NCBI RefSeq assembly: GCF_036365525.1
Contig: NC_090396.1
Location: 28,496,283 to 28,560,282 of the forward strand
Direction of reading: 5' to 3'
From: Heterodontus francisci
Lineage: Eukaryota
DNA length: 64,000 nt
Part shown: piece after piece, positions 5,943 through 54,080 of the stretch
Numbering within the stretch: the first letter of the stretch is position 1
How the letters are laid out: every line of letters begins with the position of its first letter
Position numbers and translations under genes: made by a program
Notes under the pieces: generated by a model
The model's database searches: none
Seen by the model: only the letters and a program-made list of their open reading frames with translations
What the model was told of the DNA's origin: nothing

Positions 5943-6886
5943 TGTCATGCAGACCCCCACCTGCCAAGAATGAGGCATATGAATTTCATCATATGAATAT
6001 TAATTTTAAACTGTTGCTGGAGTGAAGGAATGACTTATTTGAAGATCACCAGACACTTGGTTGGAAGAACATTTGCATACTAAGAGACAGTGCTTTGAGA
6101 GAAAAAGGAATTGCTCACTTATTCAATTAACAGAGATTGGTCTGGGCAATGGTTCCACATCTTGTCAGTACGAGACAGCACTACAACAAAACACCACCCC
6201 CTCCCCCCCAACCCCACCCCGACCAAGAGCTTTGAAATCCACAAACGCAGGAGTGGTTAAGCCAGTTAGTCATATGACTAACCTGCTGGCCAACTTGGAA
6301 TTTTGAATTCTGCCACATAGAAAGGAACGGAAGGCAGTTTGCAACTGAAGCTGGAACAAGCAAGCCGCTCTCCTGGCTGTCTCTCTCTCTCTGCTTTCTC
6401 CCAAGCCACTGGACCCATGGAAGACTCGTAAACCTCAAAAGAGAAAAGACTCCAACATTGAAACAAGTTGAAGCGTGCACTGGGCCCCAATGATTTGCAG
6501 GACTTACCGGCAACCAAAGACTCCACATTGAACGTAAAGGACTGCAATTATAATCCCGATATTGCCTCAAACCTTTCCCCTTTATTCTTTTCTACTTTTT
6601 CTGTCTCTATCTGCGTGTGTCTTTATCACGTATGCTTGCTAGCGTGGTCGCGTTGCATATTTGTAGTCGTTAACTGGATTAAAATTTAAGATTAATAAAC
6701 TTCCACCTTTTTTGTTTAAATCTAAGGAAACCTGTCTGATCTCTTTGCCCTACAATTGGAGCAGTGAACAAGGATTCACTGAGGGGGAGCTAAAAACACA
6801 GTGTTTCTAAGATTAAACCCTCTTAGGGTGAAACCAGGCAAATGCTGAGAGGGAACCCCGAGACCCCTTATCACCTGGTCGTAACA
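5943..6886. mobile_element. Solo LTR (family A), copy 2, opposite orientation to copy 1
   Basis: TGTCATGCAGACCCCCACC...CCTGGTCGTAACA, a reverse-complement homolog of 4837-5749; TSD GTGAT/GTAAT; inserted just before KFADD. Confidence 0.85.
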
Positions 6887-8119
6887 GTAATATTTCCAAG
6901 TTTGCAGATGACACAAGACATGGTGGGAATGTGAGTTGTGAGGAGGATGCAAACAAGGAGATTTGGACAGGCTGAGTGAGTGAGCGAGAACATGGCAGAT
7001 GGAATATAATGTGGATAAGTGTGAGGTTATCCACTTTGGTAGAAGGAACACAGATGCAGAGTATTTCTTAAATGATGAAAGGGTGGAAAGTGTTGATGTC
7101 CAAAGGGACCTAGGTGTCCTTGTTCATAAGTTACTGAAAGCTAACATGCAGGTGCAGCAAGCAATTAGGAAGGCAAATGGTGTGTTAGCCTTTATTGCAA
7201 GAGGATTTGAGTACAGGAGCAAAGAAGTCTTACTTCAATTGTATAGAGCATTGGTGAGGCTACACCTGGAATATTGTGTGCAGTTTTGGTCCTCTTGCCT
7301 GAGGAAGGAAATACTTGCCATAGAGGGAATGCAGCGGAGTTCATCAGACTGATTCCTGGGATGGTGGGATTGTTGATTGAGGAGACTGGGCCAGTATTCT
7401 CTGGAGTTTAGAAGAATGTGAGGTGATCTCATAGAAACTTACAAAATTCTTAAAGGGATAGACAGGGTAGATGCAGAAAGGATGTTTCCTCTGGCTGTGA
7501 GGTCCAGACCCAGGTGACACAATCTCAGAATAATGGGCAAGCCATTTAGGACTGAGATGAGGAGGAACTTCTTCACTCAGAGGGTGGTGAATCTTTGAAA
7601 TTCAGTGTTATCCAATGAACTGCCACATGTAGCTCACTGTGAATCCAGATGTGGCCAATCACCTATTAGTAAATAAAAAGAGTGATAGATACTGGGAAAC
7701 TTGATATTCATATTTTCACACCATATGCCTTTGTTGGTGAAGTGGTAAGACAAAAAAACAGCATATGATGCATCATATTCGCGGGCTATACTTCAGCCCT
7801 TCTATCTCACTCCTACCAGAGTGTGACGATGGAAGGCCATGGAATGTTGGTCTTTTTCAAGTTCAATCTCAGACATATTAAATAGGGACCAACTTCCCTG
7901 GCATTTCAGTGAAATAATAGTGGCTGCTGCGGCATCTTGCTGAATGACTTACAGTGAACAAATGTGTAAAAATTGGGGGAAGGACCATGGTATTAAAAAA
8001 AAAACTAAAGGTATCGAATTGTTGTGTGTCTCCTAGCATTTCAAAAATGTATGATGTGTCAAATGTTTGAAATTGATGCAACTTGAGAATTGAAAGGCTC
8101 TGAAATATTTCATTAACAG

Positions 8120-8242
8120 GCCTCACCGGATTGGATAAACGCTTTGTGGCATTCAATGGAGGTTTCAGTCAGGAGCAGTTGGTTTGGCTAAACAAAGTAC
8201 TAACTTTCTCAGATAGTAACCAGGAGAAGGTTACAGTTGCTG
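8120..8242 (+). CDS. ADPRM: ADPRM (Mn-dependent ADP-ribose/CDP-alcohol diphosphatase), penultimate coding exon
   Basis: ttaacag| acceptor and |gtaagt donor, 123 nt, phase 1-1. Translates (G)[40 protein letters not shown], matching recalled human [32 protein letters not shown]. Splices in frame to 25681. Absent from the ORF track. Upstream exons lie outside the window. Confidence 0.93.
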
Positions 8243-8307
8243 GTAAGTCATGGTTTAGAAAAATATATGTAAGCATAGAACTTTTATGCATATGTCCATA
8301 AGACAGT

Positions 8308-11020
8308 CTTCTTCTTTGGCCTCCTTGTCTCGAGAGACAATGGGTAAGCGCCTAGAGGAAGTCAGTGGTTTGTGGAGCAGCGCCTGGAATGGCTATAAAG
8401 GCCAATTCTAGCGTGACAGACTCTTCCACAGGTGCTGTAGATAAAATTGGTTGTCGGGGCTGTTACACAGTTGGCTCTCTCTTTGCGCTTCTGTCTTTTT
8501 TCCTGCCAACTGCTAAGTCACTTTGATTCGCCACTCTTTAGCCCTGCCTTTACGGCTGTCCGCCAGCTCTGGCGATCGCTGGGAACTGACTCCCACGACT
8601 TGTGGTCAATGTCACAGGACTTCATGTCGCATTTGCAGATGTCTTTAAAGCGGAGACATGGACAGCCGGTGGGTCTGATACCAGTGACGAGCTCGCTGTA
8701 CAATGCGTCTTTGGGGATCCTGCCATCTTCCATGCGGCTCACATGGCCAAGCCATCTCAAGCGCCCTGGCTCAATAGGGGATGTTGGCCACCTCAAGGAC
8801 TGAGTTGGAGATACGGTCCTGCCAAGGATTCTCCGGAGGCAGTGAAGATGGAATGAATTGAGACGTCGCTCTTGGCTGACATACGTTGTCCAGGCCTCAC
8901 TGCCGTAGAGCAAGGTACTGAGGACACAGGCTTGAAACACTCGGACTTTTGTGTTCTGTGTCAGTGCGCCATTTTCCCACACTCTCTTGGCCAGTCTGGA
9001 CCTAGCAGCAGATGTCTTTCCCATGCACCTGTTGACTTCTGCATCGAGAGACAGGTGATAGTTGAGCCTAGGTAGGTGAACTCTTGAACCACTTCCAGAG
9101 CGTGGTCACCGATATTGATGGATGGAGCATTTCTGACGTCCTGTCCCATGATGTTCGTTTTCTTGAGGCTGATGGTTAGGCCAAATTTGTTGCAGGCAGC
9201 CGCAATCCTGTCGATGAGTCTCTGCAGACACTCTTCAGTGTGGGATGTTAATGCAGCATCGTCAGCAAAGAGGAGTTCCCTGATGAGGACCTTCCATACT
9301 ATGGTCTTCGCTCTTAGACGGGCAAGGTTGAACAGCCTGCCATCTGATCTTGTGTGGAGGAAAATTCCTTCTTCTGAGGACTTGAACGCATGTGAGAGCA
9401 GCAGTGAGAAGATGATCCCAAATAGTGAAGGTGTGAGAACACAGCCCTGTTTCATGCCACTCAGGATAGGAAAGGGGTCTGATGAGGCACGCTATGCTGA
9501 ATTGTGCCTTTCATATTGTCATGGAATGAGGTGATGATACTTAGTAGCTTTAGTGGACATCCGATCTTTGCTAGTAGTCTGAAGGGACCACGTCTGCTGA
9601 CAAGATCAAAGGCTTTGGTGAGATCTATGAAAGCAACGTAGAGGGGCATCCGTTGTTCGTGGCATTTCTCCTGTAGCTGGCGAAGGGAGAACAGCATATC
9701 AATGGTGGATCTCTCTGCTCGAAAGCCGCACTGTGCCTCAGGGTAGACGCGCTCAGCCAGCTTCTGGAGTCTGTTCAAAATGACTCGAGCGAAGACTTTC
9801 CCCACAATGCTGAGCAGGGAGATTCCACGGTAGTTGTTGCAGTCACCGCGGTCACCCTTGTTCTTATAGAGGGTGATGATATTGACATCGCGCATGTCCT
9901 GTGGTACTGCTCCCTCATCCCAGCACAGGCAAAGCAGTTCATGGAGTGCTGAGAGTATAGCAGGCTTGGCACTCTTGATAATTTCAGGGGTAATGCCGTC
10001 CTTTCCAGGGGCTTTTCCACTGGTTAGAGAATCAATGACATCACTGAGTTCCAATTTTGTTGGCTGTTCGTCCAGCTCATCCATGACTGGCAGAGACTGC
10101 GAGAGTTGTGTACCTATCACAACCTCTGCATCACCAACTCGTTCTTTCATACTAAACCCTGTCACCAGGTTTCATGGAGGCACCCAAGATTATGCTGTTG
10201 GCACCAGCTGGACCTCATCACAAAACAGTGTCCAAATCATGCGCAGCTTCCAGAGTACAGACTGCGACAGTGACCACTCCCTGGTGTGCAGCAAAGTTAG
10301 ACACAAACCAAAGAAGCTGCATCACTCCAAGCAGAAGGGCCACCTGCGCATCAACACTAACAGAATTTCTTATCCACAGCTGTTACATAAGTTTCTAAAT
10401 TCACTTGAAAAAGCCCTTCAAAACACTCCTCCTGGGGATGCAGAGACGAAGTGGGCCCACATCTGAGACGCCATCTATGACTCAGCAATGACCACCTTTG
10501 GCAAATGTGAGAAGCAGAATGCAGACTGGTTTCAATCTCACTTTGAAGAGATGGAACCTGTCATAGCCACTAAGCACACTGCACTGTTGAACTGCAAAGC
10601 AGCCCCCAGCAAGTTAACATCTGTAGCACTTAAAGTAGCCAGAAGCGCTGCACAAAGAACAGCCAGGCGCTGTGCACATGACTACTGGCAACACCTATGC
10701 AGTTGTATTCAGCTGGCCTCTGACACCGGAAACATCAGAGGAATGTATGATGGCATCAAGAGAGCTTTTGGGCCAACCATCAAGAAGATCGCCCCCCTCA
10801 AATCTAAATCAGGGGACACGATCACTGACCAACGCAGGCAAATGGACCACTGGGTGGACCACTACCTAAAACTGTACTCCAAGGAAAATGTTGTCACTGA
10901 TTCTGCCCTCAATGCAGCCCAGTCTCTGCCAGTCATGGATGAGCTGGACAAACAGCCAACAAAATCAGAACCGTTGATTCTCTAGCCAGTGGAAAAGCCC
11001 CTGGAAAGGACGGCATTACC
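8308..11020. mobile_element. RTE-clade LINE with 5' inversion (3' part on minus at 8308-~10100; 5' part on plus at ~10101-11020)
   Basis: RTE RT (NYRGISLLSIVGKV, AFIDLTKAFD, KQGCVL, LLFADD, RLRWLGHVSRM); (GAA)n tail; 12-bp TSD CCATAAGACAGT at 8296-8307 and 11021-11032. Confidence 0.92.
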
Positions 11021-12898: not shown

Positions 12899-13248
12899 CC
12901 ACAGTGGCGCAGTGGTTAGCACCGCAGCCTCACAGCTCCAGGGACCTGGGTTCGATTCCGGGTACTGCCTGTGTGGAGTTTGCAAGTTCTCCCTGTGTCT
13001 GCGTGGGTTTTCTCCGGGTGCTTCTGTTTCCTCCCACAAGCCAAAAGACTTGCAGGTTGATAGGTAAATTGGCCATTATAAATTGTCACTAGTATAGGTA
13101 GGTGGTAGGGAAATATAGGGACAGGTGGGGATGTTTGGTAGGAATATGGGATTAGTGTAGGATTAGTATAAATGGGTGGTTGATGTTCGGCACAGACTCG
13201 GTGGGCCGAAGGGCCTGTTTCAGTGCTGTATCTCTAATCAAAAAAAAA
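12899..13248 (+). mobile_element. HE1-like V-SINE
   Basis: tRNA-like A/B boxes (GTGGCGCAGTGGTTAGC, GGTTCGATTCC), V-domain (TGTGTGGAGTTTGCA...GGTTT...TTTCCTCCCAC) and CR1-type tail GGGCCGAAGGGCCTGTTTCAGTGCTGTA. Confidence 0.9.
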
Positions 13249-13755: not shown

Positions 13756-14364
13756 TGTTGTGCCTAATACGCACTTCCTCTTAAAGAATCCGCGGAATCC
13801 GATTGGTGAAAAGTATATCGATATTTTATTCACATACTAAATCATCAAATACAAGCTCTCACTACTTGTACAGTATACTACCCATCAAGACACTGGGTGA
13901 TCAGTCTCGGACTTGCAGCTGCTGTTCTGTTCTCTGAGCCCCTGGCTCAGGGTATCTTCTCAAGTGTTCTTCCCCGTGGTTCTTGGACCTTCCCTAGTTT
14001 CAGTCAGGGGTTAAATCTTGTTTCCAAGACCCTCCCCTCTTACTCATAGGGGTCTGGCATAATGACATAATGATAATTCCTTATTTGGCTCAGTGAGCAC
14101 CTGTTCAAAACTTCACAGTTTCCCGTTATCTACTGTGAGTCAGATCTTATCTAGTATCCATGACGACCCCCTTTATCTGCTACATGAAAGACAGGGTCTG
14201 GTGTCATCAATATGTCTTATCTATACTGTTTACAATTCCTCGGCCATCTGTGTGCTGTGGCCCCATTCTACTCATAGCCCCTATTGTTTAACACAATTAT
14301 TTATTGTTGTGTGACTAGCCCATTTGTTTTAACTAAATTTTTGTGTGTTTTTACTGGGTCTACA
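13756..14364 (-). repeat. 3' LTR of ERV (609 bp)
   Basis: Same termini as the 5' LTR; preceded on the minus strand by the PPT; AATAAA on the minus strand near 13825-13830. Confidence 0.95.
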
Positions 14365-14375
14365 GTCCCCCCTTT
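14365..14375 (-). promoter_or_regulatory. Polypurine tract
   Basis: AAAGGGGGGAC directly abuts the TGTAG start of the 3' LTR. Confidence 0.85.
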
Positions 14376-14643
14376 GATCCTGCAGGGCTATGCCCAAGGG
14401 ATCACACTCTCATGTCTCTTAGGTAGTACACTTGTCCAATTACAATTTCATTTTCAAAGCAAAAGCATAAGCAGTGTAATGTTAAAGAAAGCACAATTTA
14501 AACATCACTATTACATAATCAATCAATTGTGTGAACATAATACAGTGCAATTTCATTCTTAGAGTATGTTGATCATTCATTAATTCATTTTCAGTATATA
14601 CGAATAGGTTATACAATTACCCTCTTGTTACATAACTAATTGT

Positions 14644-16051
14644 CTATCTTTTATAGAACAAGTTCGAATACTGATCACCTTTAAGATAGCTGTCCAACCT
14701 GTGTTCATACATCCTCTCACATTGCCTAATTAATTTCAACAAAATGTACTGTTGCTCACCAGACAAGTCCGGTTATGTCCATACTGGTACTCCTCTGCCG
14801 TGGTGGGTAAGCAATATCTCCCCTTTCCCATATAGGCCACATGGGTTACCCCTGACAATGCTTTCCTAGTTTCCATGGTGCAATAGACAGTGGCATTAAC
14901 TCCACATTTTGATTCTTCTGTTTTATATATAGGATGAGGACATATGACCACCTGGTTTTCCACACTACACTCAGACAATGTTGTTCCAACTACCTCTTTT
15001 CCAATTTCCACAACATAGGGTAAAATATCATGGTATTTTATGTAATCTTTTCCCCTTATCACCCCTATATTTTCCACTTTATATAACTGCATCCCTAACT
15101 TATCTCTCGGAATTACAGGTATTCCCAATACTACTCCAATACTCATAGATCTTGTACTTACACACTCCTGACCCTTCCATACCTTAACAAGTTTTCTGAG
15201 TTCTAACCTTCTGGTCCACATTTTCCAAATCTATAGTATTAACAACTGAAGTTAAAGACTGTGACTACGTCATTAACTAAACTACGTTTACGTCTCTTTC
15301 CCTTTATTATTCCCTCATCACCAAATTCTTGTCTCAGCAATTGTTGCAGTCGTACCTTATACAACTCTCGGGTCTTCTCAGGGCACCAGCCAGGTAGCTG
15401 GATATCTGAGATATTTAATATTACTGGTACCAACTCATGCTGTATATTATCACATACAATTTTATTTTTTATTATCGCAAGTCCATTTTCTGGTCCTGCA
15501 GTTAAGGCAGGGCAAGGGAGATCAGTCACTTGTGGCTGCTGGATTGTAACCCTCCTCATTAGTAATTCGGGTGTGGGGTTAACCGTGGTGGTTGGAGCTT
15601 CTAGCCCGATTACACTCACGACCTGAAGTAGAAACTGTCCTTTTTTATTTTTCCCAACGCAGTCGAGCCAATAACCCTATCACTGTGCGGCTTCACACAC
15701 AGTGGTCGGTTCTTACAGTCTTTATCATCACATTCCCATACAGGAAATTTGGGGCCACCTGGTGGGTCCCGTAAGGTGGTTCCCTTTGGGCATTCGACAC
15801 ATACCCACTGTCTGATAGTAACATTTACAAAATAAGCCCACTGCTCCCACCGCTCGTCCCCAACTGCAACTTCCCATAGCCCCTGATAGTTGCCATGTAC
15901 TTCTACTGAGTCAGACAATGTCATCTGTATGTCCTCCCCTGAATCAGTTCCCGTTACAGCACTTGATGTTATACGGTCTGTCATCCTCCTTCAACGCGTT
16001 GATGGCTACAGCTGCAGCAGTCATCACGAGCAATAGATACCAAGGTTTCAT
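14644..16051 (-). pseudogene. env: ERV env, class I fusion protein of Mononegavirales F-like type; disrupted and internally deleted
   Basis: Splice acceptor (atcttacag|) 8 nt before the ATG at 16051; signal peptide MKPWYLLLVMTAAAVA; F2-like block; furin site KRRKR followed by SLVNDVVTVFN; Cys-rich F1-like block; remnant tail ...YSNLFYKR*. Confidence 0.8.
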
Positions 16052-16101
16052 TCTGTTACCTGTAAGATCAAGATAACACCTGCTCTTATTTACAGTTCTC
16101 A

Positions 16102-19100
16102 TTAGTGTACCCCAGCTGGGTCAAACTCATCATCACTTATGCGGATTAATCGACCCCGTACCCCTAGTTCTGATGGACCATTACCCTGTGGTTTCCCCAT
16201 TCGCCTCCACTCTGTTTGAAGGTGTGGTTTAAGCTGTTTCCTTTTTGAACGGACAGCTGGTTCCACATTTAATTTCTCTGTTTTGATGCTACCTTTCTCA
16301 ACTTCTGTGACTCCAGAGGAAGTGGCTTCCCCTGGGTCCTCTAGAAACATTCTCTGGAATGCAAAACTTAAGTTTTCCATATCATCCTCTAAGAACTGAG
16401 GACTCTGATCCTGTCCATTTCCTCCATGGGCGGGAGCGTTTCCCACTTGCCCCATCTCTACCTCTCCTAGTGCGTCTGACTGTACATGGTGTTGATGGCT
16501 ATTCTGTATTCCGAATAGTTTAAGTTGGTTCACCTGGTACCAGCGTGCCCTATCGTTCTCCATCATTACCTTGTACACTGACGGCCGGCTTTATCTATGA
16601 TACGGTATGGCCCAGCGTATTTTGGGGACAAAAAAGTTCCTGTCTGTTGGATTCGGACCATAACTTGTTGCCCCACATCTAGTTCTACCATCTTTATCTT
16701 TCCATCAAAATATGCCTTACTTTGTTTCTGTTTCCGTCCCATTTGTACTGCTGCTATCTTCTGAGTTGCCCACAAATGCTCCAATAACTGATTCATAAAT
16801 TTCTCACGGGTTAGGGCAGTTATCTCAGGTTCAGAAAGGTCTAACCCCAACAGTGTTACTATCCCTCGCATTTGTTTTCCCGTCATTAGGGCATGGGGGG
16901 GTAAATCCAGTCGAGCTGGATACCATGTGACTGATTACCATCAGGACGTAGGGTCGGACCTTATACCAAGTTGAATTATTTTGCTGCACAGTCTTTCTCA
17001 ACATTCCCTTTAAAGTCCTGTTGATTCTTTCTACAATCCCACTTGACTGAGGGCGATAGACTATATGGAATTTCTGATCAATCGCCAACATAGTCATCAC
17101 ACTCTGCATCACTTCAGCAGTGAAGTGAGACCCTTGATCTGATTCTATGCTTCGAGGCAACCCCCATCTGGTAAAAACATGCTGCACTAAAATATCAGCA
17201 GTTACCCGTGCTGTGTTACTCTTTGTGGGAAAAGCCTCTACCTATTTAGTGAAAGTATCAATAATCACCAGTACATATTTAAATCCTCCCCTGCATGGAG
17301 GCAATGGCCCCACATAATCAATCTGCAGATTCGTCCACGGCCCTTCTACCGGACGTGTGTGTCGTAATTCTCCTTTCTGTGTGTACTGGTCTGGATTATT
17401 TTGAGCACAAATCAAACAGTTTTCCACATAATGCTTCACATCTCCTCCCATTCCTGGCCACCAACACAATTCCTTTATTCGACCTTCTGTAGCCTCCATC
17501 CCTTGGTGTCCTTGTACATCATGACACTGATAAATTATTTGATTTCTATCCTCTATCAGCACTGCATATTTTCCTTCCTTCAGTACCACTCCTGTCTCTG
17601 ATTGTATCTTCGACCTCCATCTAGAATACTCTTCTGGCCATTTTTCTTTTCTGTATCTGTTTTAGTATGGGATCTTGGCTTTGTGCCTCTACCAGATCTT
17701 CAATCTTAAGCTGGGAGACTATCACTGCGCTTATGGGGTTCGTGTCATCTCCCCTCGGATCCCAATATTTCCCTGCTCTTGGTCCGGTCTTTGCTAACTC
17801 ATTGGCTCTCTTATTTCCTTCAGGACTCTCTTAACTATGAGCCTTTACTTTAATGATCCCGTACTGACCTTCCCCTTTTCTTGCTGCATTTACTATCCTC
17901 TGCAGTAAGAGGGCAGACAGCAAAGGTTTTCCATCTGCCGACACAAAACCTCTCGCTTTCCACAGAGGTAGGTACTCGGTTAAACTGTTACACACATACA
18001 TACTATCAGAATAAATGTCAACTGGTGGGGGAAACGTGTGGTTGTGTCACCATAAAAGCGACCGCAGCTAGTTCTGCACCCTACGCACATAGACTCACGG
18101 GTAACTGTAAGGCAATATCTTTAATAGGTGTTCCATTATGATCCTGTACATGTAATCCACATCCTGTCTGCCTAATCCCATCCTCCATTGGAGAGGAACC
18201 GTCAATAACATTTTTTAGAGCTGGTTTGATTTCTGGCTCTTTCCCATGTACACCCCCCAATGATTTTGACACAAAAGGTCCCTTGAGGGCCTTTGCCTTT
18301 TTTACTGAAATGTCTCTGCCTTGCAAGAGTAAGGTCCACTGAGCAATACGATTCTGACTAACATTACCATTCCTCAGTCGTCCATCCAGTAACAACCGGA
18401 TAGGCGTGTGTTCAGTTAGAATAGTTACCGGGCTGAGGCCGACAATATAAGTAAAATGTTGAACTGCCCAGAAGACGGCCAGCAAATGCTTTTCACACAC
18501 TGTAAAAGCTCGTTCTACTGATGTTAACAAGCGAGACACGTACGCCACTGGACAAAAATCGACCATATTTTTCCTGAAGCAATAAGGTAGTATCTGTGGT
18601 AGCAACCTCGAGGGCAAAGGGTAGGGATGGGTCCGGCACCTGTAGCGCTGGGGCTGTGGCTAGTGCCTGTTTTAATTCTGCAACTGCTGACGTACACTCT
18701 GGTGTCCATACCCACTCGGAGTTCTTCTTCAGGAGATCATATAAAGGGGCTGCCTTTAAGGCAAATCCATCAATATGGTTCCTGCAATACCCAACAAGGC
18801 CCAAAAATGATCTCAGAGCTTTAATATCTTGTGGTAGGGGAAGTTCGAGGATTGTCTGTACTCGCTTTTGCTCTATCTCGTGCTTTCCCTGTGTTACCAC
18901 TATTCCCAAATACGAAACCTTTTCTTTCAATATCTGTGCCTTTTTCGGGTTAACTTTCACTCCGACCTTCCAAAGGAGTTGAAGGAATTCCTCCAGTAGC
19001 TCGAAATGCTCTTCCTTACGCTCCGTTTGGAGAAAAAGGTCATCCAAAAATTGGATCAAACATTCTGATAGGGAGAAAGGACTTAACCCTTTTGCCAACC

Positions 19101-20050
19101 GCTGGTGGAATATTGATGGACTATTATGAAATCCCTGGGGGAGACATGTCCAGGTGTACTGTTGTCCCTGGAACGTAAACGCAAATTTATATTGATGCTG
19201 TTGTGCCAGTGGTATGGACCAGAACTCGTTACTAATATCCAACACGGTAAACCATTTAGACTGTGGGAACTGCTTCATTATCATTGCAGGGCTTGTAGAA
19301 ATAGTCGGTGCTGTCAAGGGTGTGACCTTATTTAATTCTCGATAGTCAATAGTCAATCGCCATGATCCATCTGGTTTACGGACGGGCCAAATAGGAGCGT
19401 TATTGGTGGATGCCATTGGTCTTCATATCGCCTGTTGTAGGAGACTGTCAATGACCTTCCTATCTCCGCCTGTTTGGGGAACCCATACTGTTTCTGGGGT
19501 CGATGATCTGGCCCCTCAATTAGGACGTCGCCTGTCATCCGTCCGCAATCATGCTTGTGAGTTGCAAACACCGAACGGTGTTTTTCAATAACTTGCGCTG
19601 CCGCATCAGCAGTCATGTCCTCTGGGTTTAACCCCAATTCTGCCATCGCGCAGATTCTCTCTGTGTATTGACCCGTTTGGATCATACCAGAGAAACCCTG
19701 CACGTTCGGCATCTTCCAGATGCAACAATTCACCGGATCAAAAGACAAACCTTGTTTCCTCATTACATCTGATCCCAAAATGTTCTCCATCAATTGTCCC
19801 AACTTGACGATCACATGTGTACGGTTAAAACAATAATTTTCAAATCTGAATAGTAATGGTTTCATTTCAATCCCTGTTTGAACATGGCCTGTAAAGCCAC
19901 TTAACAGCACTTTATTCTGGGTATGTCAAGAAGGGTCTGTTCCTTTAGATTGCTTCAGGACTGTCCGGGATCCACCGGTATCCCACAAAAACATAGCGAG
20001 GCAGCCTCCTACCTCACTTTTCACCACCGGTCGCCCAAACGGATCCCATC
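16102..20050 (-). pseudogene. pol: ERV pro-pol (PR, RT, tether, RNase H, IN), disrupted
   Basis: PR FLWDTGGSRTVL (DTG at 19974-19982). RT PIWPVRKPDGSWRLTIDYRELNK, LPQGFHNSP, FLDD. Tether PVAYVSRLL...EKHLLAVFWAV. RNase H VIDGSS...AELAAV...KVKAH...GNKRANELAK. IN HHCC (HDVQGH...CLIC), D-D-E (LQIDYVG, ESDQGSHF, GIVERIN) and GPY motif. Confidence 0.92.
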
Positions 20051-20199
20051 TCCCTTTGCAAACCCACTCCACCGAGGCCTGACACCATCAATCGTCCCAG
20101 CCTGTATCGAGATCAGAATTACAGGTAACCAACTTGGTTAACCCTTCCTTCTGTCCAGCCCTTCTCCGGATTTCACTAACAGGAGCCATAGGATGATAT

Positions 20200-21900
20200 C
20201 GACCACCCTCGCACTCCGGCTGCTGAGTCACCGGTCTCCTGGCCCCTTCCAAAGGCAACGGAGGGTATAGGATACTTCTGGTTCTCCTTCCCTTATATGT
20301 TGCTGGGGTGCATTACAATCACGAACGAAAATGTCCTTGCTTCCCGCAATTAAAACATCTGCCGATTATGGGCAGGGGGGAATTGTTCCTGGCCATCGCT
20401 CTACCTCACCCTACTTCTTCTTCATAAAGGGGTGGTGGTGGTACCCTAGCTGTGCGACCTCGACCTTTCCTGGGCCCCTCATTTCTCCATACTGTTCCCG
20501 GGCCCCTCGGGTGAAAGGCGCTGATTTTGCCCTTTCACTTGTCTTTATTGGTTTCTCGTTTTCCCAGGCCTCTTTCCCATACATGAGTCATATGTCGGAG
20601 AGCCCACTATTCAGTGTGGGTTTGGTCTTCCAGATCAGAACTCTCACATGCATTCTGACTACTCTCATTAGAATGAGCTGTCAACATGCGCACCCATCTA
20701 GATGTGTTATTCCCAAGATTAGTTCTGCCTAGTCTGGGCCCATAAACTCCATTGAAATTATTCCATAATCGATAGGCAAACACCACCAGATGCTCATTCA
20801 ACCCCTGCCGGCACTTATGCAAGCCTTCTGTGGGATCCCCTTTATTACACCCTGATGCTGCCAATATTGCTGCCTTCATTTCATCTGGGGTACCCTCGCC
20901 CCCTTGCTGTGCTTGTGGCAATGCAGAGAAGAGTATGGGAGCAAAACACATTCCCAATAGTTTAACCTCCTCTTTATTGTCCAATCCGTGTAGAGCCCGT
21001 AAATGGGTTATAGCTGCAAAGGTAATGTACAGGTCCCCTTCTCCATTATACTTAGGGACCTCCTTCTGCATTTCTGCCAATTGAGTGATCGTATATGTTA
21101 GTGTTTGCCCCCTTGGACCCCGTCTATTCGACTAGTTATCAATGGTGCCATAGGTAAGGCCAGGGTGGGGGCAGACAGCTCAGTTGGGGGTTCAGGCGGT
21201 TCGGGAGATGGATCATCCCATGAACCGTTTTCATCGTTATGGTACGTACTGGCCTGGTCTGCCAAGTCGGTCCACTTAATGTCGTCATTGTCATCATCCT
21301 CCCTATCCACAAACGCGCATATTATACCCCTTTGCGCTGAGAGTTGAGACTGTAGTTTATTTATCTCCTGCTGACATTTTGTATGATCCGCTGACTGGTA
21401 CGCCTGCTCCGTCTGAGTGGTTGATAACTGTCATTGCGGTCTGTAAGTCAGAGCATTTCTGTTCCGTTCTTGTGAGCTGTTCCTTTGCCTTGTTCGCTTC
21501 CCTCTCAGCCTTACTGCGTCGGTACTCAGCCTTTTCAACTTGAGACTGGAATTGACTTAAAATGCACTACCTGTGCTGCACTAACTGACTCTGCCTTCAG
21601 GGCCCTATCACGCCACTCATTCTTTTCTTTTTCTGACTTTTGCAACTCCTGCTTCAATCTTTCGGCTTCACTCTCTTTTTCATCTAATTCCCTCATACAA
21701 GCAGTGGCTTTCACTAACATAGGTGCCCTTTTGGCTTGGTGGGTACGCGCATCCTCCCATTGCTATACCCCAACGGACCCCTGGCCCGTGTATTGTAAAC
21801 TCTATCCACGAGGGCTACTTGCCCTTCAAATATTTCCGGAGCTCCAACTCCCATGCTGGCCTGGCCAGGGCTATAATTACTCAATCCGATCTGTCAGACT
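20200..21900 (-). pseudogene. gag: ERV gag (disrupted)
   Basis: Coiled-coil segment (ELDEKESEAERLKQELQKSEKEKNEW), acidic/Pro-rich linker, capsid-like block (EVPKYNGEGDL...LHKCRQGLNEHLVVFAYRLW), and zinc knuckle CFNCGKQGHF(fs)VRDC at about 20315-20357. Boundaries approximate. Confidence 0.8.
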
Positions 21901-21972
21901 CGTAATTTTGTTTATAATTTAGTTCAAACTCAGCGAGGCTATTCAAAATAATTTGAAATAGCACTACAATTG

Positions 21973-21990
21973 AGTGCTGTTCGGGCACCA
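21973..21990 (-). promoter_or_regulatory. Primer binding site, tRNA-Lys(UUU/Lys3)-like
   Basis: TGGTGCCCGAACAGCACT, 4 nt after the 5' LTR, versus canonical Lys3 PBS TGGCGCCCGAACAGGGAC (13 of the first 14 nt match). Confidence 0.8.
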
Positions 21991-21994
21991 ATTA

Positions 21995-22644
21995 TGTTGT
22001 GCTTAATACGCACTTACTCTTAAAGAATCCACAGAATCCGATTGGTGAAAGGTATATTGATATTTTATTCACATACTAAATTATCAAATACAAATTCTCA
22101 CTACTTGCACAGTATCAAAACTCAAAGTACAAGCTCTCACTATTTGTACGATATACCACCCGTCAAGACACGAGGTGATCAGTCTCAGACTCGCGGCTGC
22201 TGTTCTGTTCTCTGAGCCCCTGGCTCAGGGTATCTTCTCGAATGTTCTTCCCCGGGGTTCTTGTACCTTCCCTAGTTTCAGTCAGGGGTTAAATCTTGTT
22301 TCCAAGACCCTCCCCTCTTACTTACTCATAAGGGTCTGGTATAATGACAATGATAATTCCTTATTTGGCTCGGTGAGAACCTGTTCAAAACTTCACAGTT
22401 TCCCATTACCTACTATGAGTCAGATCTTATCTAGTATCCATGACGACCCCCTTTATCTGCTACATGAAAGACAGGGTCTGGTATCATCAATATGTCTTAT
22501 CTATACTGTTTACAATTCCTCGGCCATCTGTGTGCTGTGGCCCCGTTCTACTCATACCCCCCCATGTTTTAACACATTATTTATTGTTGTGTGACTAGCC
22601 CATTTGTTTTAACTAAATTTTGATGTGTTTTTGATGGGTCTACA
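21995..22644 (-). repeat. 5' LTR of ERV (650 bp)
   Basis: Minus strand reads TGTAGACCC...CACAACA; homologous to 13756-14364; carries an extra ~40-bp tandem copy near 22085-22155. Confidence 0.95.
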
Positions 22645-24749
22645 GGGGGTGGGGAAGGGGGGCGTCTTGGGTCCCAGGGGTTGGGAGTGGGGGTGGCCCT
22701 CAATTGGGCACCCTGTGCCCGACTGCCATGGCACCCCACCGGCACGCAGAAAGGCCAGCAGCTATTGCTGGGTGGCCTTTCATGTCCCCAGCATGCCCGC
22801 TTGCCACGGGTAAAATACCCGTGGAGGCTGGCGATGCTGGCCAATTAAGGGCCTTGATTGGCCTTGGACGGGCAGGCTGACCTTTTTTCCGACCGTCGTA
22901 AAGTTGGCCGGAGGCAGGAGCGGGGCGAGGAGGCCTCCGGAGCCTCCCATTCAATTTTACTCCGCCCCCACTCCCAACCCCTGGGACCCAATAAAATTCA
23001 GCCCAATGAGTTCCAGCTCATCACCACTTGCTGGGTGAAAGAGTTCTTCCTCACATTCCCCCCTGCATCTCTTGTCCAAAATCTGTGTTCCCTAGTCCCT
23101 GTACCATCAGCTAATGGAAACAGTATTTCTTTGTTAACCTTACCTGTCATAATCTTGTACACCTCTATCAAATCTCCTCTCAATTTTCTTTGTTCCAAGG
23201 AGAACAACACAAGCTTCTCCAATCTAACCTTGTAGCTAAACTTCCTCAACCCTGGAACCATTCTGGCAAATCTCCTCTGCACCCTCTCAAGGACGCTCAT
23301 ATCCTTCCTAAAATTTGCTGACCAGAACTGGATGCAATAGTCTAGTTGTGCCATAACCAGACCTTTATAAAGGTTCTGCACAATTTCCCTGCATTTGTAC
23401 TCAATACCTCTATTTGTGAAGCCAAAGATTCCATATGCTTTGCTAACTACACTCTAAATATGGCCTACCACCTTCAAAGATCTATGGACGTGAATCCCCA
23501 GGTCCCTCTGTTCTTGCACACTCTTTAGAACTGCACCATTAAGTCCATATTAGCTCCCCCATCTCTTCTGCCAAAATGTTCACACTTCTCTGTATTAAAT
23601 TCCATCTGCCACTTGTCTGTCCATTCTGCTAGCCTATCTATGCCCTGTTGCAATCAATTAGTATCATTCTCACTATTTGCTTCCAAGTTTGGTATCATTG
23701 GCAAATTAAAAAATTTACTCTGCATTCCAATGTCCAAGTCATTTATATATAGCAAATAAAGCTGTGATCCTAGCACTGAACCTTGGGGAACACCATTGTC
23801 TACCATCCTCCAGTCTGAAAAACGACCATTTACCACAACTCGCTGTTTTCTGTCCTTTAGCCAATTTTTTATCCAAGAGAAACTGTACCTAACCCAATAT
23901 ATTTTTACAAGCTTCTTGTTGATGTATTCAATTCATCACCTTGAAATTTCCTAACCATCACCACCACTAGTGACAGAGCAGCAGTACTTTACTGAACTGT
24001 TGTATAGTGCAAAATGCTCTCATCAGCTATACCAAAGTTTGGTGATGTCTGTAATTGTGTTGTTCCATGTTTATCACAGTTCAACTGGACAATGCTCTGA
24101 ACAGCATGAGTTAACTATTTTGATGTAGATTCCTGATCTTATCTGAATAGAGACCTTAGGCAGACGCTGAAAGTCTACCTAGATCAACAAGAGGAGGATG
24201 GAAGAAATCCAGTAATTCTTAGGTGATACAATGCTTCATCTTTCAAAGTCTGTAGATTGTAGAATTGACCCTATTACAGTAACATTGATGCCAACAAGAG
24301 TGCTGCTAACAAGAGACAAAGATTAAGAACAATTGGTACAAGTGATTGTGAGTGCCTAAGTGACAACAGAGAGTGATGAACTAAGCAAATGCTCCCCCCA
24401 CCCCTGGCCAGAAATGGACCCAAAACACCTAACCTTGTATTTCGTAATGAACTACTGTCTGACCTGTTAGTTTTCACAACTTGCAGGTGAGCACATGTGG
24501 AACATACACCTGTTATGGATGGGATCTTCCACATGCCATCTGGTTCGAGAACTGAGCAGCACACAGATAGAGTGAAAATCTGGCTCATCGATTTCCACCT
24601 AATTGCACAAAGACTACAGCTCTAATAGCATTGTATATTTTTTTTTATCAAATATTATTCTATACATTACATTAATTATTGTGGAATGCCATTTATATGT
24701 GGTCCTATTATAACTATTTACAGGGTAACAATAACTCATCTTTGATTAT

Positions 24750-34237: not shown

Positions 34238-34593
34238 GGGCGGCACAGTGGCGCAGTGGTTAGCACCGCAGCCTCATAGCTCCAGGGACCCGGGTTCGAT
34301 TCCGGGTACTGCCTGTGTGGAGTTTGCAAGTTCTCCCTGTGTCTGCGTGGGTTTTCTCCGGGTGCTCCGGTTTCCTCCCACAAGCCAAAAGACTTGCAGG
34401 TTGATAGGTAAATTGGCCATTATAAATTGTCACTAGTATAGGTAGGTGGTAGGGAAATATAGGGACAGGTGGGGATGTTTGGTAGGAATATGGGATTAGT
34501 GTAGGATTAGTATAAATGGGTGGTTGATGTTCGGCACAGACTCGGTGGGCCGAAGGGCCTGTTTCAGAGCTGTATCTCTAATCTAATCTAATC
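34238..34593 (+). mobile_element. HE1-like V-SINE
   Basis: Near-identical to 12899-13248; (CTAAT)n tail. Confidence 0.9.
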
Positions 34594-45800: not shown

Positions 45801-47110
45801 AGGCTGGATTTTGTGGCCAGTAGTGATGACGATGCTCACCCCTGACCTTGAAGAAAGCTACCTACAAAGATCTAGGAATCTCTGTGATGTGGATTTCCCC
45901 TTTTCCAATGTTAATTTCATTCTGGTGCCAGCTGTGCAGGATATCAGGCATCCGGCAACAGTGATGTCATCAATCGGGCTAAGCAGCCAATCACATTGAA
46001 GAATTCTCACAGCTAGAAAACCAGGAAGTAAAATGCACTGATTATCTTTCACTTTCAAATCATCTTATAGAGAGTGAAATAAGGACTGAGGTTTACACGT
46101 GGGATTAAGGTGTAAGCTAAAATTCTGACAGCAATTTCTAGACTCCGCACACGTGCAGATTAACGCAGTTATCCAGAAATAGCAGTCAGTAATTCTATGG
46201 TTAGCACCGCAGCCTCACAGCTCCAGCGACCCTGGTTCAATTCTGGGTACTGCCTGTGTGGAGTTTGCAAGTTCTCCCTGTGACCGCGTGGGTTTTCGCC
46301 GGGTGCTCCAGTTTCCTCCCACAGCCAAAAACTTGAGGTTGATAGGTAAATTGGCCATTATAAATTGCCCCTAGTATAGGTAGGTGGTAGGGAAATTGAG
46401 GGAAGTTGGGGATGTGGTAGGAATATGGGATTAATGTAGGATTAGTATAAATGGGTGGTTGATGGTCGGCACAGACTCGGTGGGCTGAAGGGCCTGTTTC
46501 AGTGCTGTATCTCTAAATAAATAAATATGCTTCTGAGGAACTGCCAGATTGCAATCAATAAGGAAATAAATTAAATTGGTGAGAACATCTACTCTTACAA
46601 AAGTTATAACTTGTTAAATGAGAGAGTGTAACTAACTGGGTTAACAGTGGACTAACTTCATAATTACTGCTAAATACCTTCACTGGCCCGGAGAAACTAA
46701 TTTTATAATTGTGGAATGTCAAGTTTCTCCATTATGATAAAATTTCCTATATTTCTAAATAAATATATATATATATAAAGTTTGTGTATCTTTACTTTAG
46801 TTTTTATCTTAAACCAATCATAATCATTTATTTCACAATCTGAAATATTAAATTAAAAGTGAAGGACATTAATTGCTTTTAGCTTCCTGGTTTGCAGTGT
46901 GAGAATACTTCAGAGAGATTGGTTACTTACCCTGGTTAATGACATCACTGCTGCTGAATGCTTGGAGATCCCCTGATTTGCTGTTAGATTTAAATTGCCG
47001 TCAGGAAAGGGGAAATCCATGCCACTGAGGTCGCGATATCTTTGGAGGCAACTTTCTTCAAGATCAGTGGCAGGTACTATTGCTTCACTACTGACTGCAA
47101 AATCCAGCCT
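45801..47110. mobile_element. Long-TIR MITE (Harbinger-like termini)
   Basis: AGGCTGGATTTTG...CAAAATCCAGCCT; about 250-bp inverted arms (the ORF track shows DLEES on both strands); related partial copies at about 47125-47505 and 49640-50175. Confidence 0.75.
46197..46526 (+). mobile_element. HE1-like V-SINE inserted in a MITE
   Basis: Same head, V-domain and tail; slightly 5'-clipped; (AAAT)n tail. Confidence 0.88.
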
Positions 47111-52409: not shown

Positions 52410-54080
52410 TGTGATGGGGACATCAATGGCAAGACCAGCAATTATTGCCCATCTTTAGCTACTCTAAGAAAGTGATAGTGGGCCTTCTTGAACTGTTGCA
52501 GTCTGTGTGATGAAAGTTCTCCGACAGTGTTGTTAGGTCGGCAGTTCCAGTATATTGACCCAGTGATGAAGGGATGGCAGTATATGCTCAAGTTTGGATG
52601 GTTTGTGAGTGAGGGAAATTTGGAGGTTATGGTGCTCCCATGCACCTACTGCCCTGGTCCTTCTTGGTGATGGAGGTTTCAGGTTTGGGAGATGCTGCTG
52701 ACGCAGCTGCTGCAGTGCATTCTATAGATAGTACACTCTGCAGACAAGGCAGTGGAGGGGGTGGCCGTTCAGTGTACTGGACGAGGTGGCAATCAAGCAG
52801 GCCACTGTAATAGTGTTCAACAGCTTGAGTGTTGTTGGAGCTGCAGCAATCCAAGCAAATGAAGAGTATTCCATCACACTGTGGACTTATGCTTTATAAA
52901 TGGTACAGAACCTTTGAGGTGTCAGAAGATGAACCACTCACCACAGCAGTCTCTGACCAGCTCAATTAGCCAAGCCATTTGTGTGTGATTCTGGTCAATT
53001 GTGACCCCCAGGTTGTTGATAGTGGGGCATTTGGCCATTAAATGTCTTGGTTGGGTGGGTGGGTGGTGGTTGGACTTTCTCTTGTTGGAGATAGTTATTG
53101 CCTGGCACTTTTGTGGCATGTATGTTACTTACTACTTAACAGGGGTGGGGCTAATTGACCACCAACCACAACCATCTTCCTTTGTACCAGGTGTGACTCC
53201 AACCAGTGAAGAGTTTTCCCCCTGATCCTCATTGACTTCAGTTTTACCAGAGCTACTTGGTGCCATATTTGGTTGAATGCTGCCCTCATGTCAAAGGCAG
53301 TCACTCTCACCTCACTTGTAGAATTCAGCATGTGTCCAAATCTGTAATGAGGTCTGGAGCTAAGTGGTCCAAGTGGAAACCAAACTGAGCATCAATGAAC
53401 AGGTTATTGATGAATAATTGGCATTTGATAGCACTGTTGATTACGTTACTTTGCAGATGATTAGGAATAGGTTGCTAGGGTAGTTTAGTTTAGTTTAGTT
53501 ATACAGCACTGAAACAGGCCCTTCGGCCCACCGAGTCTGTGCCGACCATCAACCACCCATTTATACTAATCCTACACTAATCCCATATTCCTACCACATC
53601 CCATCATTTCCCTACCACCTACCTATACTAGGGGCAATTTATAATGGCCAATTTACCTACCAACCTGCAAGTCTTTTGGCTTGTGGGAGGAAACCGGAGC
53701 ACCCGGAGAAAACCCATGCAGACACAGGGAGAACCTGCAAACTCCACACAGGCAGTACCCAGAATTGAACCCGGGTCACTGGAGCTGTGAGGCTGCAGTG
53801 CTAACCACTGCGCCACTGTGCCACCCATTGGCTAGGTCAGATTTGTCCTGCTTTTTATGGACAGGACAGACTTAGGCAATTTTACACATCATCAGATAGA
53901 TCCATGTTGTAACTGTACTAGAACATCTTGGCGAGAGGCACAGCTAGTTCTGTACCACAGGTCTTCAGCACTACAACTGGGATTCTGTCAGGGCTCTCAG
54001 CCTTCACTGTACTCTGCCATCTTTTCATGTCATGGAATAAATTTAATTGGTTCAAGACAGGTATCGGTGATGGTGGAGGG
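52410..54080 (-). mobile_element. Older fragment of the same LINE family, interrupted by an HE1 SINE
   Basis: AFDMRAAFNQIWHQ, KMVVVGGQ, VVLKTCGTELAVPLAKMF; tail near 52410. Confidence 0.75.
53481..53826 (-). mobile_element. HE1-like V-SINE inserted in a LINE
   Basis: Reverse complement of the same family; (CTAAA)n tail. Confidence 0.88.

What the first reader, a model, noticed from the sequence alone, without database searches (positions are those of the whole stretch)
14644..15619. Env resembles a paramyxo/pneumovirus F fusion protein
Seen: GLAIIKNKIVCDNIQHELVPVILNISDIQLPGWCPEKTRELYKVRLQQLL, then KRRKR|SLVNDVVTVFN-(frameshift)-SVVNTIDLENVDQKV, then GVVLGIPVI...LYKVENIGVI...LSECSVENQVVICPHP...CGVNATVYCTM...GRYC...TC...TFC. 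Known: paramyxovirus F2 has a beta strand followed by C-x7-Y-x3-L-x2-[VL]L (e.g. measles CTRVEIAEYRRLLRTVL), a furin site, fusion peptide, HR1 and a Cys-rich F1 domain. Inference: an envelope shared with or exchanged between negative-strand RNA viruses and retroviruses.
Basis: partly seen in the sequence, partly recalled or inferred. Interest (0 to 1): 0.8.

Follow-up and report, generated by a model that had tools for sequence, protein, structure and literature searches.

The report
Shark retrovirus with RSV-type fusion envelope
This is a dead, twice-deleted copy of an abundant retrovirus fossil in what is likely a shark genome; its envelope is predicted to fold like the fusion protein of RSV and measles-type viruses and comes with one of two unrelated front-end domains, while its enzymes look like those of the snakehead fish retrovirus, which suggests that this kind of envelope is more widespread in retroviruses than published.

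Summary
The motifs are real. They lie in the env of an LTR-bounded provirus (13756-22644, minus strand) with many copies in a 6.0-Gb, probably shark, genome. The window's env is dead: frameshifts, plus two deletions that remove most of HR1 and all of HR2/TM. No sequence profile links the family to Fusion_gly or TLV_coat. An AlphaFold model of a natural sister copy (pLDDT 76) matches pneumo-/paramyxovirus F (Foldseek E 1e-10; VIA Z 11-12), then foamy Env (Z 8.6). So the fold call holds, but direct exchange with negative-strand viruses is not shown: identities are about 7-14%, and lispivirus, baculovirus and walleye-retrovirus proteins score as well or better. The RT is snakehead-retrovirus-like by eye, not lokiretrovirus-like. 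Env starts about 430 bases upstream of the finding, with a probably Ig-like head; sister copies carry one of two unrelated heads on the same F module. F-type Env is published for lokiretroviruses and foamy viruses; I found no report for SnRV-like ERVs.

The parts
13756..14364 (-). 3' LTR (TG...CA), flanked by GGGGG, a possible 5-bp target-site duplication (low-complexity, so weak)
14365..14375 (-). polypurine tract
   Evidence: sequence
14644..14733 (-). env cytoplasmic tail and stop, downstream of the second deletion
   Evidence: same tail in copies
14737..14738 (-). junction of deletion 2 (about 394 nt; HR2, Trp-rich stretch and TM missing); 0 colinear, 35 split loci
14739..15203 (-). Cys-rich beta part of the F-like module (F1 domains I/II equivalent)
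15198..15202 (-). junction of deletion 1 (about 331 nt; most of HR1 and the central helix missing); shared with 3 other distinct genomic places
15205..15283 (-). fusion-peptide-like stretch after the cleavage site, broken by a frame change at about 15250
   Evidence: role inferred
15284..15298 (-). furin-type site KRRKR
   Evidence: R/K-x-R/K-R found in 6 of 7 relatives tested
15299..15514 (-). F2-like subunit (long strand, Cys, helix)
15515..15620 (-). Thr/Pro-rich linker
15621..15990 (-). N-terminal head (type 1), broken by frame changes; weakly predicted Ig-like beta sandwich; replaced by an unrelated head in other copies
16000..16051 (-). env start, signal-peptide-like stretch (inferred from hydrophobicity; lower bound approximate)
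16102..17661 (-). integrase (H2C2, rve, SH3-like) and C-terminal tail, in pieces
17831..18046 (-). second RNase H (PF00075)
18081..18659 (-). tether (degenerate RNase H, PF17917/PF17919)
18493..19422 (-). reverse transcriptase (FLDD where relatives have YVDD); SnRV-like by eye
19353..21800 (-). protease and gag region in pieces (assigned by position; no significant Pfam hit; N-terminal coiled-coil-like stretch)
   Evidence: inferred
21977..21990 (-). primer-binding site, tRNA-Lys-like (tRNA identity recalled, not tested)
21995..22644 (-). 5' LTR; K2P distance to the 3' LTR 0.066 over 607 aligned bases

Best explanation
The stretch is the decayed env of a multi-copy endogenous retrovirus, likely of a shark and likely of the snakehead-retrovirus-like clade, whose Env is predicted to be a class Ib fusion protein of the paramyxo-/pneumovirus F type with a probably Ig-like head in front. 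Shown: provirus anatomy, many copies, two deletions and frameshifts in this copy, a furin-type site, HR/TM layout in sister copies, and two unrelated heads on the same F module. Predicted: the F fold. Inferred mechanism for the ancestral virus: a signal peptide takes Env into the ER; furin cuts at KRRKR, leaving head plus F2 attached to F1; the head on its Thr/Pro stalk binds a cell receptor, doing the job that a separate H/HN/G protein does in paramyxoviruses; HR1 then extends, the fusion peptide inserts, and HR2 zips back to fuse the membranes. Heads were likely exchanged by recombination at the linker, changing the receptor without touching the fusion machine. This copy cannot make a membrane-anchored Env.
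For: Provirus with dual RNase H and LTRs. Model pLDDT 75.8, pTM 0.54 from a 56-sequence alignment. Foldseek PDB: best RSV F E 1.2e-10, 238 matches at E<=0.001, all rows shown are F. VIA wide: RSV F Z 11.5 (288 aligned, rmsd 7.5), 9 F rows at Z 10.3-11.5, foamy Env 8.6, best unrelated row 6.4. VIA second look: Z 12.2, 291 aligned, rmsd 6.4. 57 relatives at E<=0.001; the 17 of 20 looked-up representatives that carry a name are from sharks, frogs and coelacanth. RT: best hits are frog/coelacanth Pol, top 4 at 53-56%; inside a 35-row retrovirus clade (SH-aLRT 99) apart from Ty3/gypsy; MLV-type RT 2e-46 > foamy 2e-40 > Ty3 2e-25; by-eye identity over a 53-residue core: SnRV 38, WDSV 30, FFV 25, Loki-Lch 24 (rows read). 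Heads: a 667-nt head shares only its first 57 nt with the window's 609-nt head between anchors 87% and 93% alike; 63 matches of 89 candidates; 11 of 15 such loci carry the family's F2 at 83-92%; F2 identity 88.4% between head types against 89.8% and 89.6% within; no profile similarity between heads.
Against: No sequence-level hit to PF00523 or to any F chain, even with 23- and 56-sequence profiles. Global TM-scores are only 0.26-0.37 and rmsd is high (monomer model; pLDDT mostly 28-57 over residues 71-170). The model is of a sister copy (L024), not of the broken window copy. The head model is poor (pLDDT 45.8; Foldseek best E 0.006; VIA best Z 4.4), so 'Ig-like' is a hint only. The tree is the quick version, holds no SnRV, loki, foamy or ERV-L reference, and leaves the window's position within retroviruses unresolved; the SnRV call rests on a by-eye count. 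SnRV Env is not among the named rows (4 of 50 rows are unnamed). Receptor binding, cleavage and fusion are untested. The host is inferred from named hits, not from host genes.
Confidence: 0.8

Rival explanations
1. The element is a lokiretrovirus, the first in a cartilaginous fish.
For: F-like Env, RXKR site, dual RNase H and NYNRIN-like Pol hits fit the description in PMC7947760. The Loki-Lch Env tail seen shows a similar Cys spacing by eye.
Against: The RT has LPQGFHNSP where all loki rows read have PFG-type motifs; by-eye identity 24/53 to Loki-Lch against 38/53 to SnRV. Four motifs from the window RT and its best hits are absent from the held (cut) supplement text. The paper found 0 of 6 chondrichthyan genomes positive.
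Confidence: 0.05
2. A canonical retrovirus captured its env from a negative-strand RNA virus, or from a lokiretrovirus, as a separate event.
For: The best solved matches are pneumo-/paramyxovirus F. The two top predicted matches are mononegavirus glycoproteins (lispivirus E 4e-15; fish filovirus E 1.6e-13). Retroviruses swap env often (bioRxiv 2021.11.23.469661, abstract).
Against: Identity is 8-15% to every group. Baculovirus F and WEHV-1 Env rank above paramyxovirus F. The family spans sharks, frogs and coelacanth and two divergent RT lineages in this genome, so any capture is ancient. No donor is singled out.
Confidence: 0.3
3. The F match is an artefact of long helices plus an AlphaFold bias towards well-known viral folds.
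For: No sequence signal; pTM 0.54; helical bundles fill the lower ranks.
Against: The matches span residues 9-394, including the beta-rich part modelled at pLDDT about 90. F rows stand 4-5 Z units above unrelated rows, with 280-290 aligned residues. Furin site, hydrophobic peptide, HR and TM order agree independently.
Confidence: 0.05

Closest known systems
Pneumovirus and paramyxovirus F (RSV 6apb/8w3p, hMPV 7sem, hPIV3 1ztm, Nipah 8dmj; Pfam PF00523)
   Same: Predicted fold, F2/F1 layout, furin site before a hydrophobic peptide, HR1, Cys-rich beta part, HR2, TM.
   Different: 7-14% identity, no Pfam hit; an extra N-terminal head and linker; encoded by a provirus.
Lokiretrovirus Env (Wang and Han 2020, PMC7947760)
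   Same: F-like Env on an LTR element with dual RNase H; RXKR site.
   Different: RT is not loki-type; loki Env hits PF00523 (E 2.2e-7 in the paper), this family does not; not found in 6 chondrichthyan genomes.
Foamy virus Env (Fernandez et al. 2024, PMC11468914; PDB 8rm0/8rm1)
   Same: Class Ib, F-related retroviral fusogen (Z 8.6 and 7.6).
   Different: Foamy RBD is inserted between the subunits; here the extra domain is N-terminal, as in coronavirus spike; RT less foamy-like.
Snakehead retrovirus, clade Huo (Xu et al. 2018, PMC6001957), CmiERV lineage I (Han 2015, PMC4422223)
   Same: RT core 38/53 identical by eye; SnRV-related ERVs are known in a cartilaginous fish.
   Different: The passages read do not describe their Env as F-like; SnRV is an 11.2-kb complex virus, this element is 8.9 kb after deletions.
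Walleye epsilonretrovirus Env (WEHV-1 Q9WHI8, WDSV A4GTG3; predicted models)
   Same: Match the model at E 4e-12 and 5e-9.
   Different: About twice as long; RT only 30/53 by eye.

Membership tests
Paramyxo-/pneumovirus F (PF00523) | Sequence or profile match to Fusion_gly or to an F chain | tested here: not met
   no hit
Paramyxo-/pneumovirus F (PF00523) | F fold (class Ib core) | tested here: met
   predicted model of a sister copy
Paramyxo-/pneumovirus F (PF00523) | Basic cleavage site followed by a hydrophobic peptide, then HR1, HR2, TM | tested here: met
   in sister copies; most of HR1 and all HR2/TM are deleted in the window copy
Paramyxo-/pneumovirus F (PF00523) | No N-terminal attachment domain (attachment by a separate protein) | tested here: not met
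   head and linker precede F2
Paramyxo-/pneumovirus F (PF00523) | Trimer that fuses membranes | not testable with these tools
   no functional test; trimer model not run
Lokiretrovirus | RT of the loki type | tested here: not met
   motif and by-eye identity 24/53; no tree with loki rows
Lokiretrovirus | Dual RNase H | tested here: met
   (shared with canonical retroviruses)
Lokiretrovirus | F-like Env with RXKR site | tested here: met
SnRV-like clade (Huo) | RT closest to SnRV among reference retroviruses | tested here: met
   by-eye 38/53 against 30, 25, 24 (rows); ERV-L/S rows not seen
SnRV-like clade (Huo) | Groups with SnRV in a Pol tree | not testable with these tools
   no tool returned an SnRV sequence; one search lacks the reference
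SnRV-like clade (Huo) | Env homologous to SnRV Env | tested here: inconclusive
   SnRV not among the named rows or the looked-up hits
Gamma-type Env (TLV_coat) | ISD and CX6CC in TM, TLV_coat hit | tested here: not met
   ISD motif 0 of 7, CXXC 0 of 7, CX6CC-like spacing 1 of 7; no TLV_coat hit
Foamy virus Env | RBD inserted between the two subunits; foamy-type RT | tested here: not met
   head is N-terminal; RT 25/53 to FFV, MLV-type RT scores higher
Ig superfamily (head) | Ig-like beta sandwich | tested here: inconclusive
   pLDDT 45.8; mostly Ig rows but best Z 4.4, E 0.006; no Pfam Ig hit

The most novel reading that the evidence does not exclude
The F-type (class Ib) envelope is the ancestral retroviral envelope, kept by foamy, loki, SnRV-like and walleye epsilon viruses and later replaced by gamma/beta-type Env in other lineages; in sharks it evolves as a constant fusion machine with exchangeable N-terminal heads, and this genome preserves such a head exchange within one family.
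Probability: 0.4. Interest if true: 0.78.

Novelty: new variant of a known kind. Interest (0 to 1): 0.52.

Why it matters
Wang and Han (PMC9040795, passages) preferred independent env acquisition because canonical and loki Env showed no similarity, and Fernandez et al. (PMC11468914, section 10) list orthoretrovirus Env under class Ia. An F-type Env on an SnRV-like Pol, with predicted F-like walleye Env, would break that split and make the origin of retroviral env testable with a structure-based tree. Two unrelated heads on one F module, with many dated copies, would be a natural record of how a fusogen gains and swaps an attachment domain, the arrangement proposed for coronavirus spike.

Tried and rejected
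Pfam on window pieces, 6 copies, 23 aligned rows and 56 relatives: no Fusion_gly, TLV_coat or Ig hit. PDB sequence searches with one protein and three profiles: nothing below E 0.09. The word-based homologue search found only 2 horn-shark gene models. The ESM Atlas gave no answer. A viral-contig scan for a named RT reference gave one 17-residue match of no use. My first guess, lokiretrovirus, was dropped after reading the RT rows. Cartilaginous-fish foamy virus (Wang, Chen, Cui 2023) was considered; the paper is not held, and the RT is less foamy-like. No gamma-type TM appeared among the top fold rows (HIV gp41 at Z 5.5, rank 48); absence there is not exclusion. LTR dating is too loose to use: K2P 0.066 gives about 15 to 150 million years with the two rates in PMC4422223. 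The careful RT tree did not finish. No trimer model, expression or read check was run.

Full report
Setting. The finding lies in the env of a provirus on the minus strand. LTRs stand at 13756-14364 and 21995-22644, K2P 0.066 over 607 aligned bases, with a PBS, a polypurine tract and G5 on both flanks. Pfam finds RT, a tether, a second RNase H and integrase, all in pieces. The genome has 6.0 Gb. The only homologues from the word-based search are Heterodontus francisci gene models at 82%, the level seen among copies in this genome, so the host is likely a horn shark; I did not test this on host genes.

Observation. Every quoted motif is present. Against sister copies the window lacks about 331 nt at about 15200 (7 loci colinear, which are 3 distinct other places; 53 split) and about 394 nt at about 14737 (0 colinear, 35 split); some places were fetched twice. 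The first deletion removes most of HR1, the second HR2 and the TM. The shared deletion suggests that env-defective copies kept spreading (inference).

Family. The Cys-rich piece has 150 scored matches of 4816 candidates. A chimeric copy revealed a second family, 29-35% identical in Env, with 150 scored of 1944 candidates and an RT about 44% identical. A 23-row profile found 57 proteins at E<=0.001 among 1.84 billion. I looked up 20 of them: 17 are named, from sharks (Heterodontus, Mustelus, Chiloscyllium, Scyliorhinus, Pristiophorus), frogs (Pelodytes, Mantella, Bombina, Xenopus) and coelacanth; 3 are unnamed. None of 56 scanned has a viral Pfam hit. No F chain was found by sequence.

Fold. 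I folded the natural, unbroken F-module frame of a sister copy (L024, 507 aa) with a 56-sequence alignment: pLDDT 75.8, pTM 0.54, beta part near 90, residues 71-170 poor. Foldseek against the PDB gives RSV F at E 1.2e-10, and all rows shown are pneumo- or paramyxovirus F; TM-scores are 0.26-0.37. The wide VIA search gives nine F rows at Z 10.3-11.5 (best 288 aligned, rmsd 7.5), foamy Env at 8.6 and 7.6, and the best unrelated row at 6.4; the second look reaches Z 12.2. Among predicted viral structures the order is lispivirus G (4e-15), a fish filovirus GP, granulovirus F, an unnamed 928-aa protein, further arthropod-virus proteins, WEHV-1 Env (4e-12), then mumps F (3e-10), WDSV Env (5e-9) and feline foamy Env (8e-7). 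Gamma-type marks are absent: ISD motif 0 of 7, CXXC 0 of 7, CX6CC-like spacing 1 of 7. The F-type call therefore holds as a prediction; a specific exchange with negative-strand viruses does not follow from it.

Which retrovirus. My first guess was a lokiretrovirus. The RT says otherwise. It has LPQGFHNSP, while all loki rows I read have PFG-type motifs. Over a 53-residue core I counted by eye 38 identities to SnRV, 30 to WDSV, 25 to FFV and 24 to Loki-Lch. Best database hits are frog and coelacanth Pol named NYNRIN-like; coelacanth ERVs are mainly SnRV-like (PMC4977317, passages). Solved RTs rank MLV type > foamy > CaMV > Ty3. A quick tree of 87 rows puts the RT in a 35-row clade with bird gamma-like ERVs (SH-aLRT 99), apart from Ty3/gypsy, with no resolution inside and no SnRV, loki or foamy reference. 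SnRV-like is thus likely, not proven.

Heads. Of 26 loci with both anchors (most selected by the window's head, some duplicates), 25 carry the window's head and one a 667-nt head that shares only its first 57 nt. That second head has 63 matches of 89 candidates; 11 of 15 fetched loci carry the same family's F2 at 83-92% and none the first head. F2 identity is 88.4% between head types against 89.8% (41 loci, about 4 duplicates) and 89.6% (7 loci) within; 8 loci had neither head in range. The heads do not align. The second family has a third head, shared with Mustelus (E 6e-30). The model of the window-type head is weak (pLDDT 45.8) but all-beta, and its matches are mostly Ig domains at Z up to 4.4. 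A Chiloscyllium relative is named Ig-like by UniRef. Receptor binding by the head is inferred only from its position.

Mechanism. Inferred from established knowledge of F proteins: ER entry, furin cleavage, receptor contact by the head, HR1 extension, fusion-peptide insertion and HR2 zippering. Fernandez et al. describe F as a minimal scaffold that can take a receptor-binding module at its N terminus, which fits this layout. The window copy has no anchor and cannot do this.

Literature seen. PMC7947760: main text parts 1-3 of 4, supplement parts 8, 29, 70, 71 of a cut file and word searches. PMC11468914: passages and section 10. PMC4422223: part 1 of 2. bioRxiv 2021.11.23.469661: parts 1-2 of 6. 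Passages only: PMC9040795, PMC12440569, PMC13709493, PMC12193657, PMC12583693, PMC6001957, PMC4977317, PMC11521997, PMC11089739, bioRxiv 2024.03.17.585361 and 2023.10.07.561363. Not seen: Calcraft et al. 2024 and Wang, Chen, Cui 2023; bioRxiv 2021.11.05.467493 as a listing only, although it holds all my terms for epsilon Env and F and may bear on that point; bioRxiv supplements were not opened. Nine searches showed no paper that describes an F-type Env in SnRV-like or shark ERVs; subscription papers are outside the library.

Earlier scan notes. After forming my reading I found 22 notes with the same words; those listed reach the same view in other genomes, including the Ig-like head. They are not independent evidence. 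None matched by sequence, none of the 3 notes returned for this genome concerns it, and none held all words for a head exchange.

Verdict. Observation confirmed; interpretation partly supported. New variant of a known kind: F-type retroviral Env is published for loki and foamy viruses, but not, as far as I found, on an SnRV-like Pol or with exchangeable heads. Interest 0.52.

Noticed in passing
L025:1459-2346 (minus): A 296-aa frame that joins a piece of the second Env family to the first family's Env in frame: a natural inter-family chimera or nested insertion.
   Followed up: partly
L050-L065: A second F-type Env family (29-35% identical) with its own RT lineage and a third head type, shared with Mustelus.
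   Followed up: partly
P0009, P0010, P0128, P0133, P0141: Gene models of fbxo15 (Heterodontus), Niban1-like (Pristiophorus), a cadherin-domain and a caspase-domain protein include pieces of this env: exonisation or annotation artefact.
   Followed up: no
P0132 cluster: 16 members at 90% identity in Mantella aurantiaca, 12 of the 15 listed 677 aa long, suggest a young frog ERV with this Env type.
   Followed up: no
ranks 2, 7, 24: Predicted structures of a fish filovirus GP (Wenling thamnaconus) and of WEHV-1/WDSV Env match the F-type model, so these may be class Ib fusogens too.
   Followed up: no
window 21357-21762 (minus): Coiled-coil-like stretch at the start of gag, reminiscent of the smc-like ORF described for some lokiretroviruses.
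   Followed up: no
window 12900-13246, 34244-34591, 46174-46525, 53484-53827: Four copies of a roughly 350-nt interspersed repeat, two of them 99% alike over 300 nt; probably a young SINE.
   Followed up: no
window 6776-10985 and 22998-23453: Decayed non-LTR retrotransposon pieces (CR1- and RTE-like by recalled motifs) flank the provirus.
   Followed up: no
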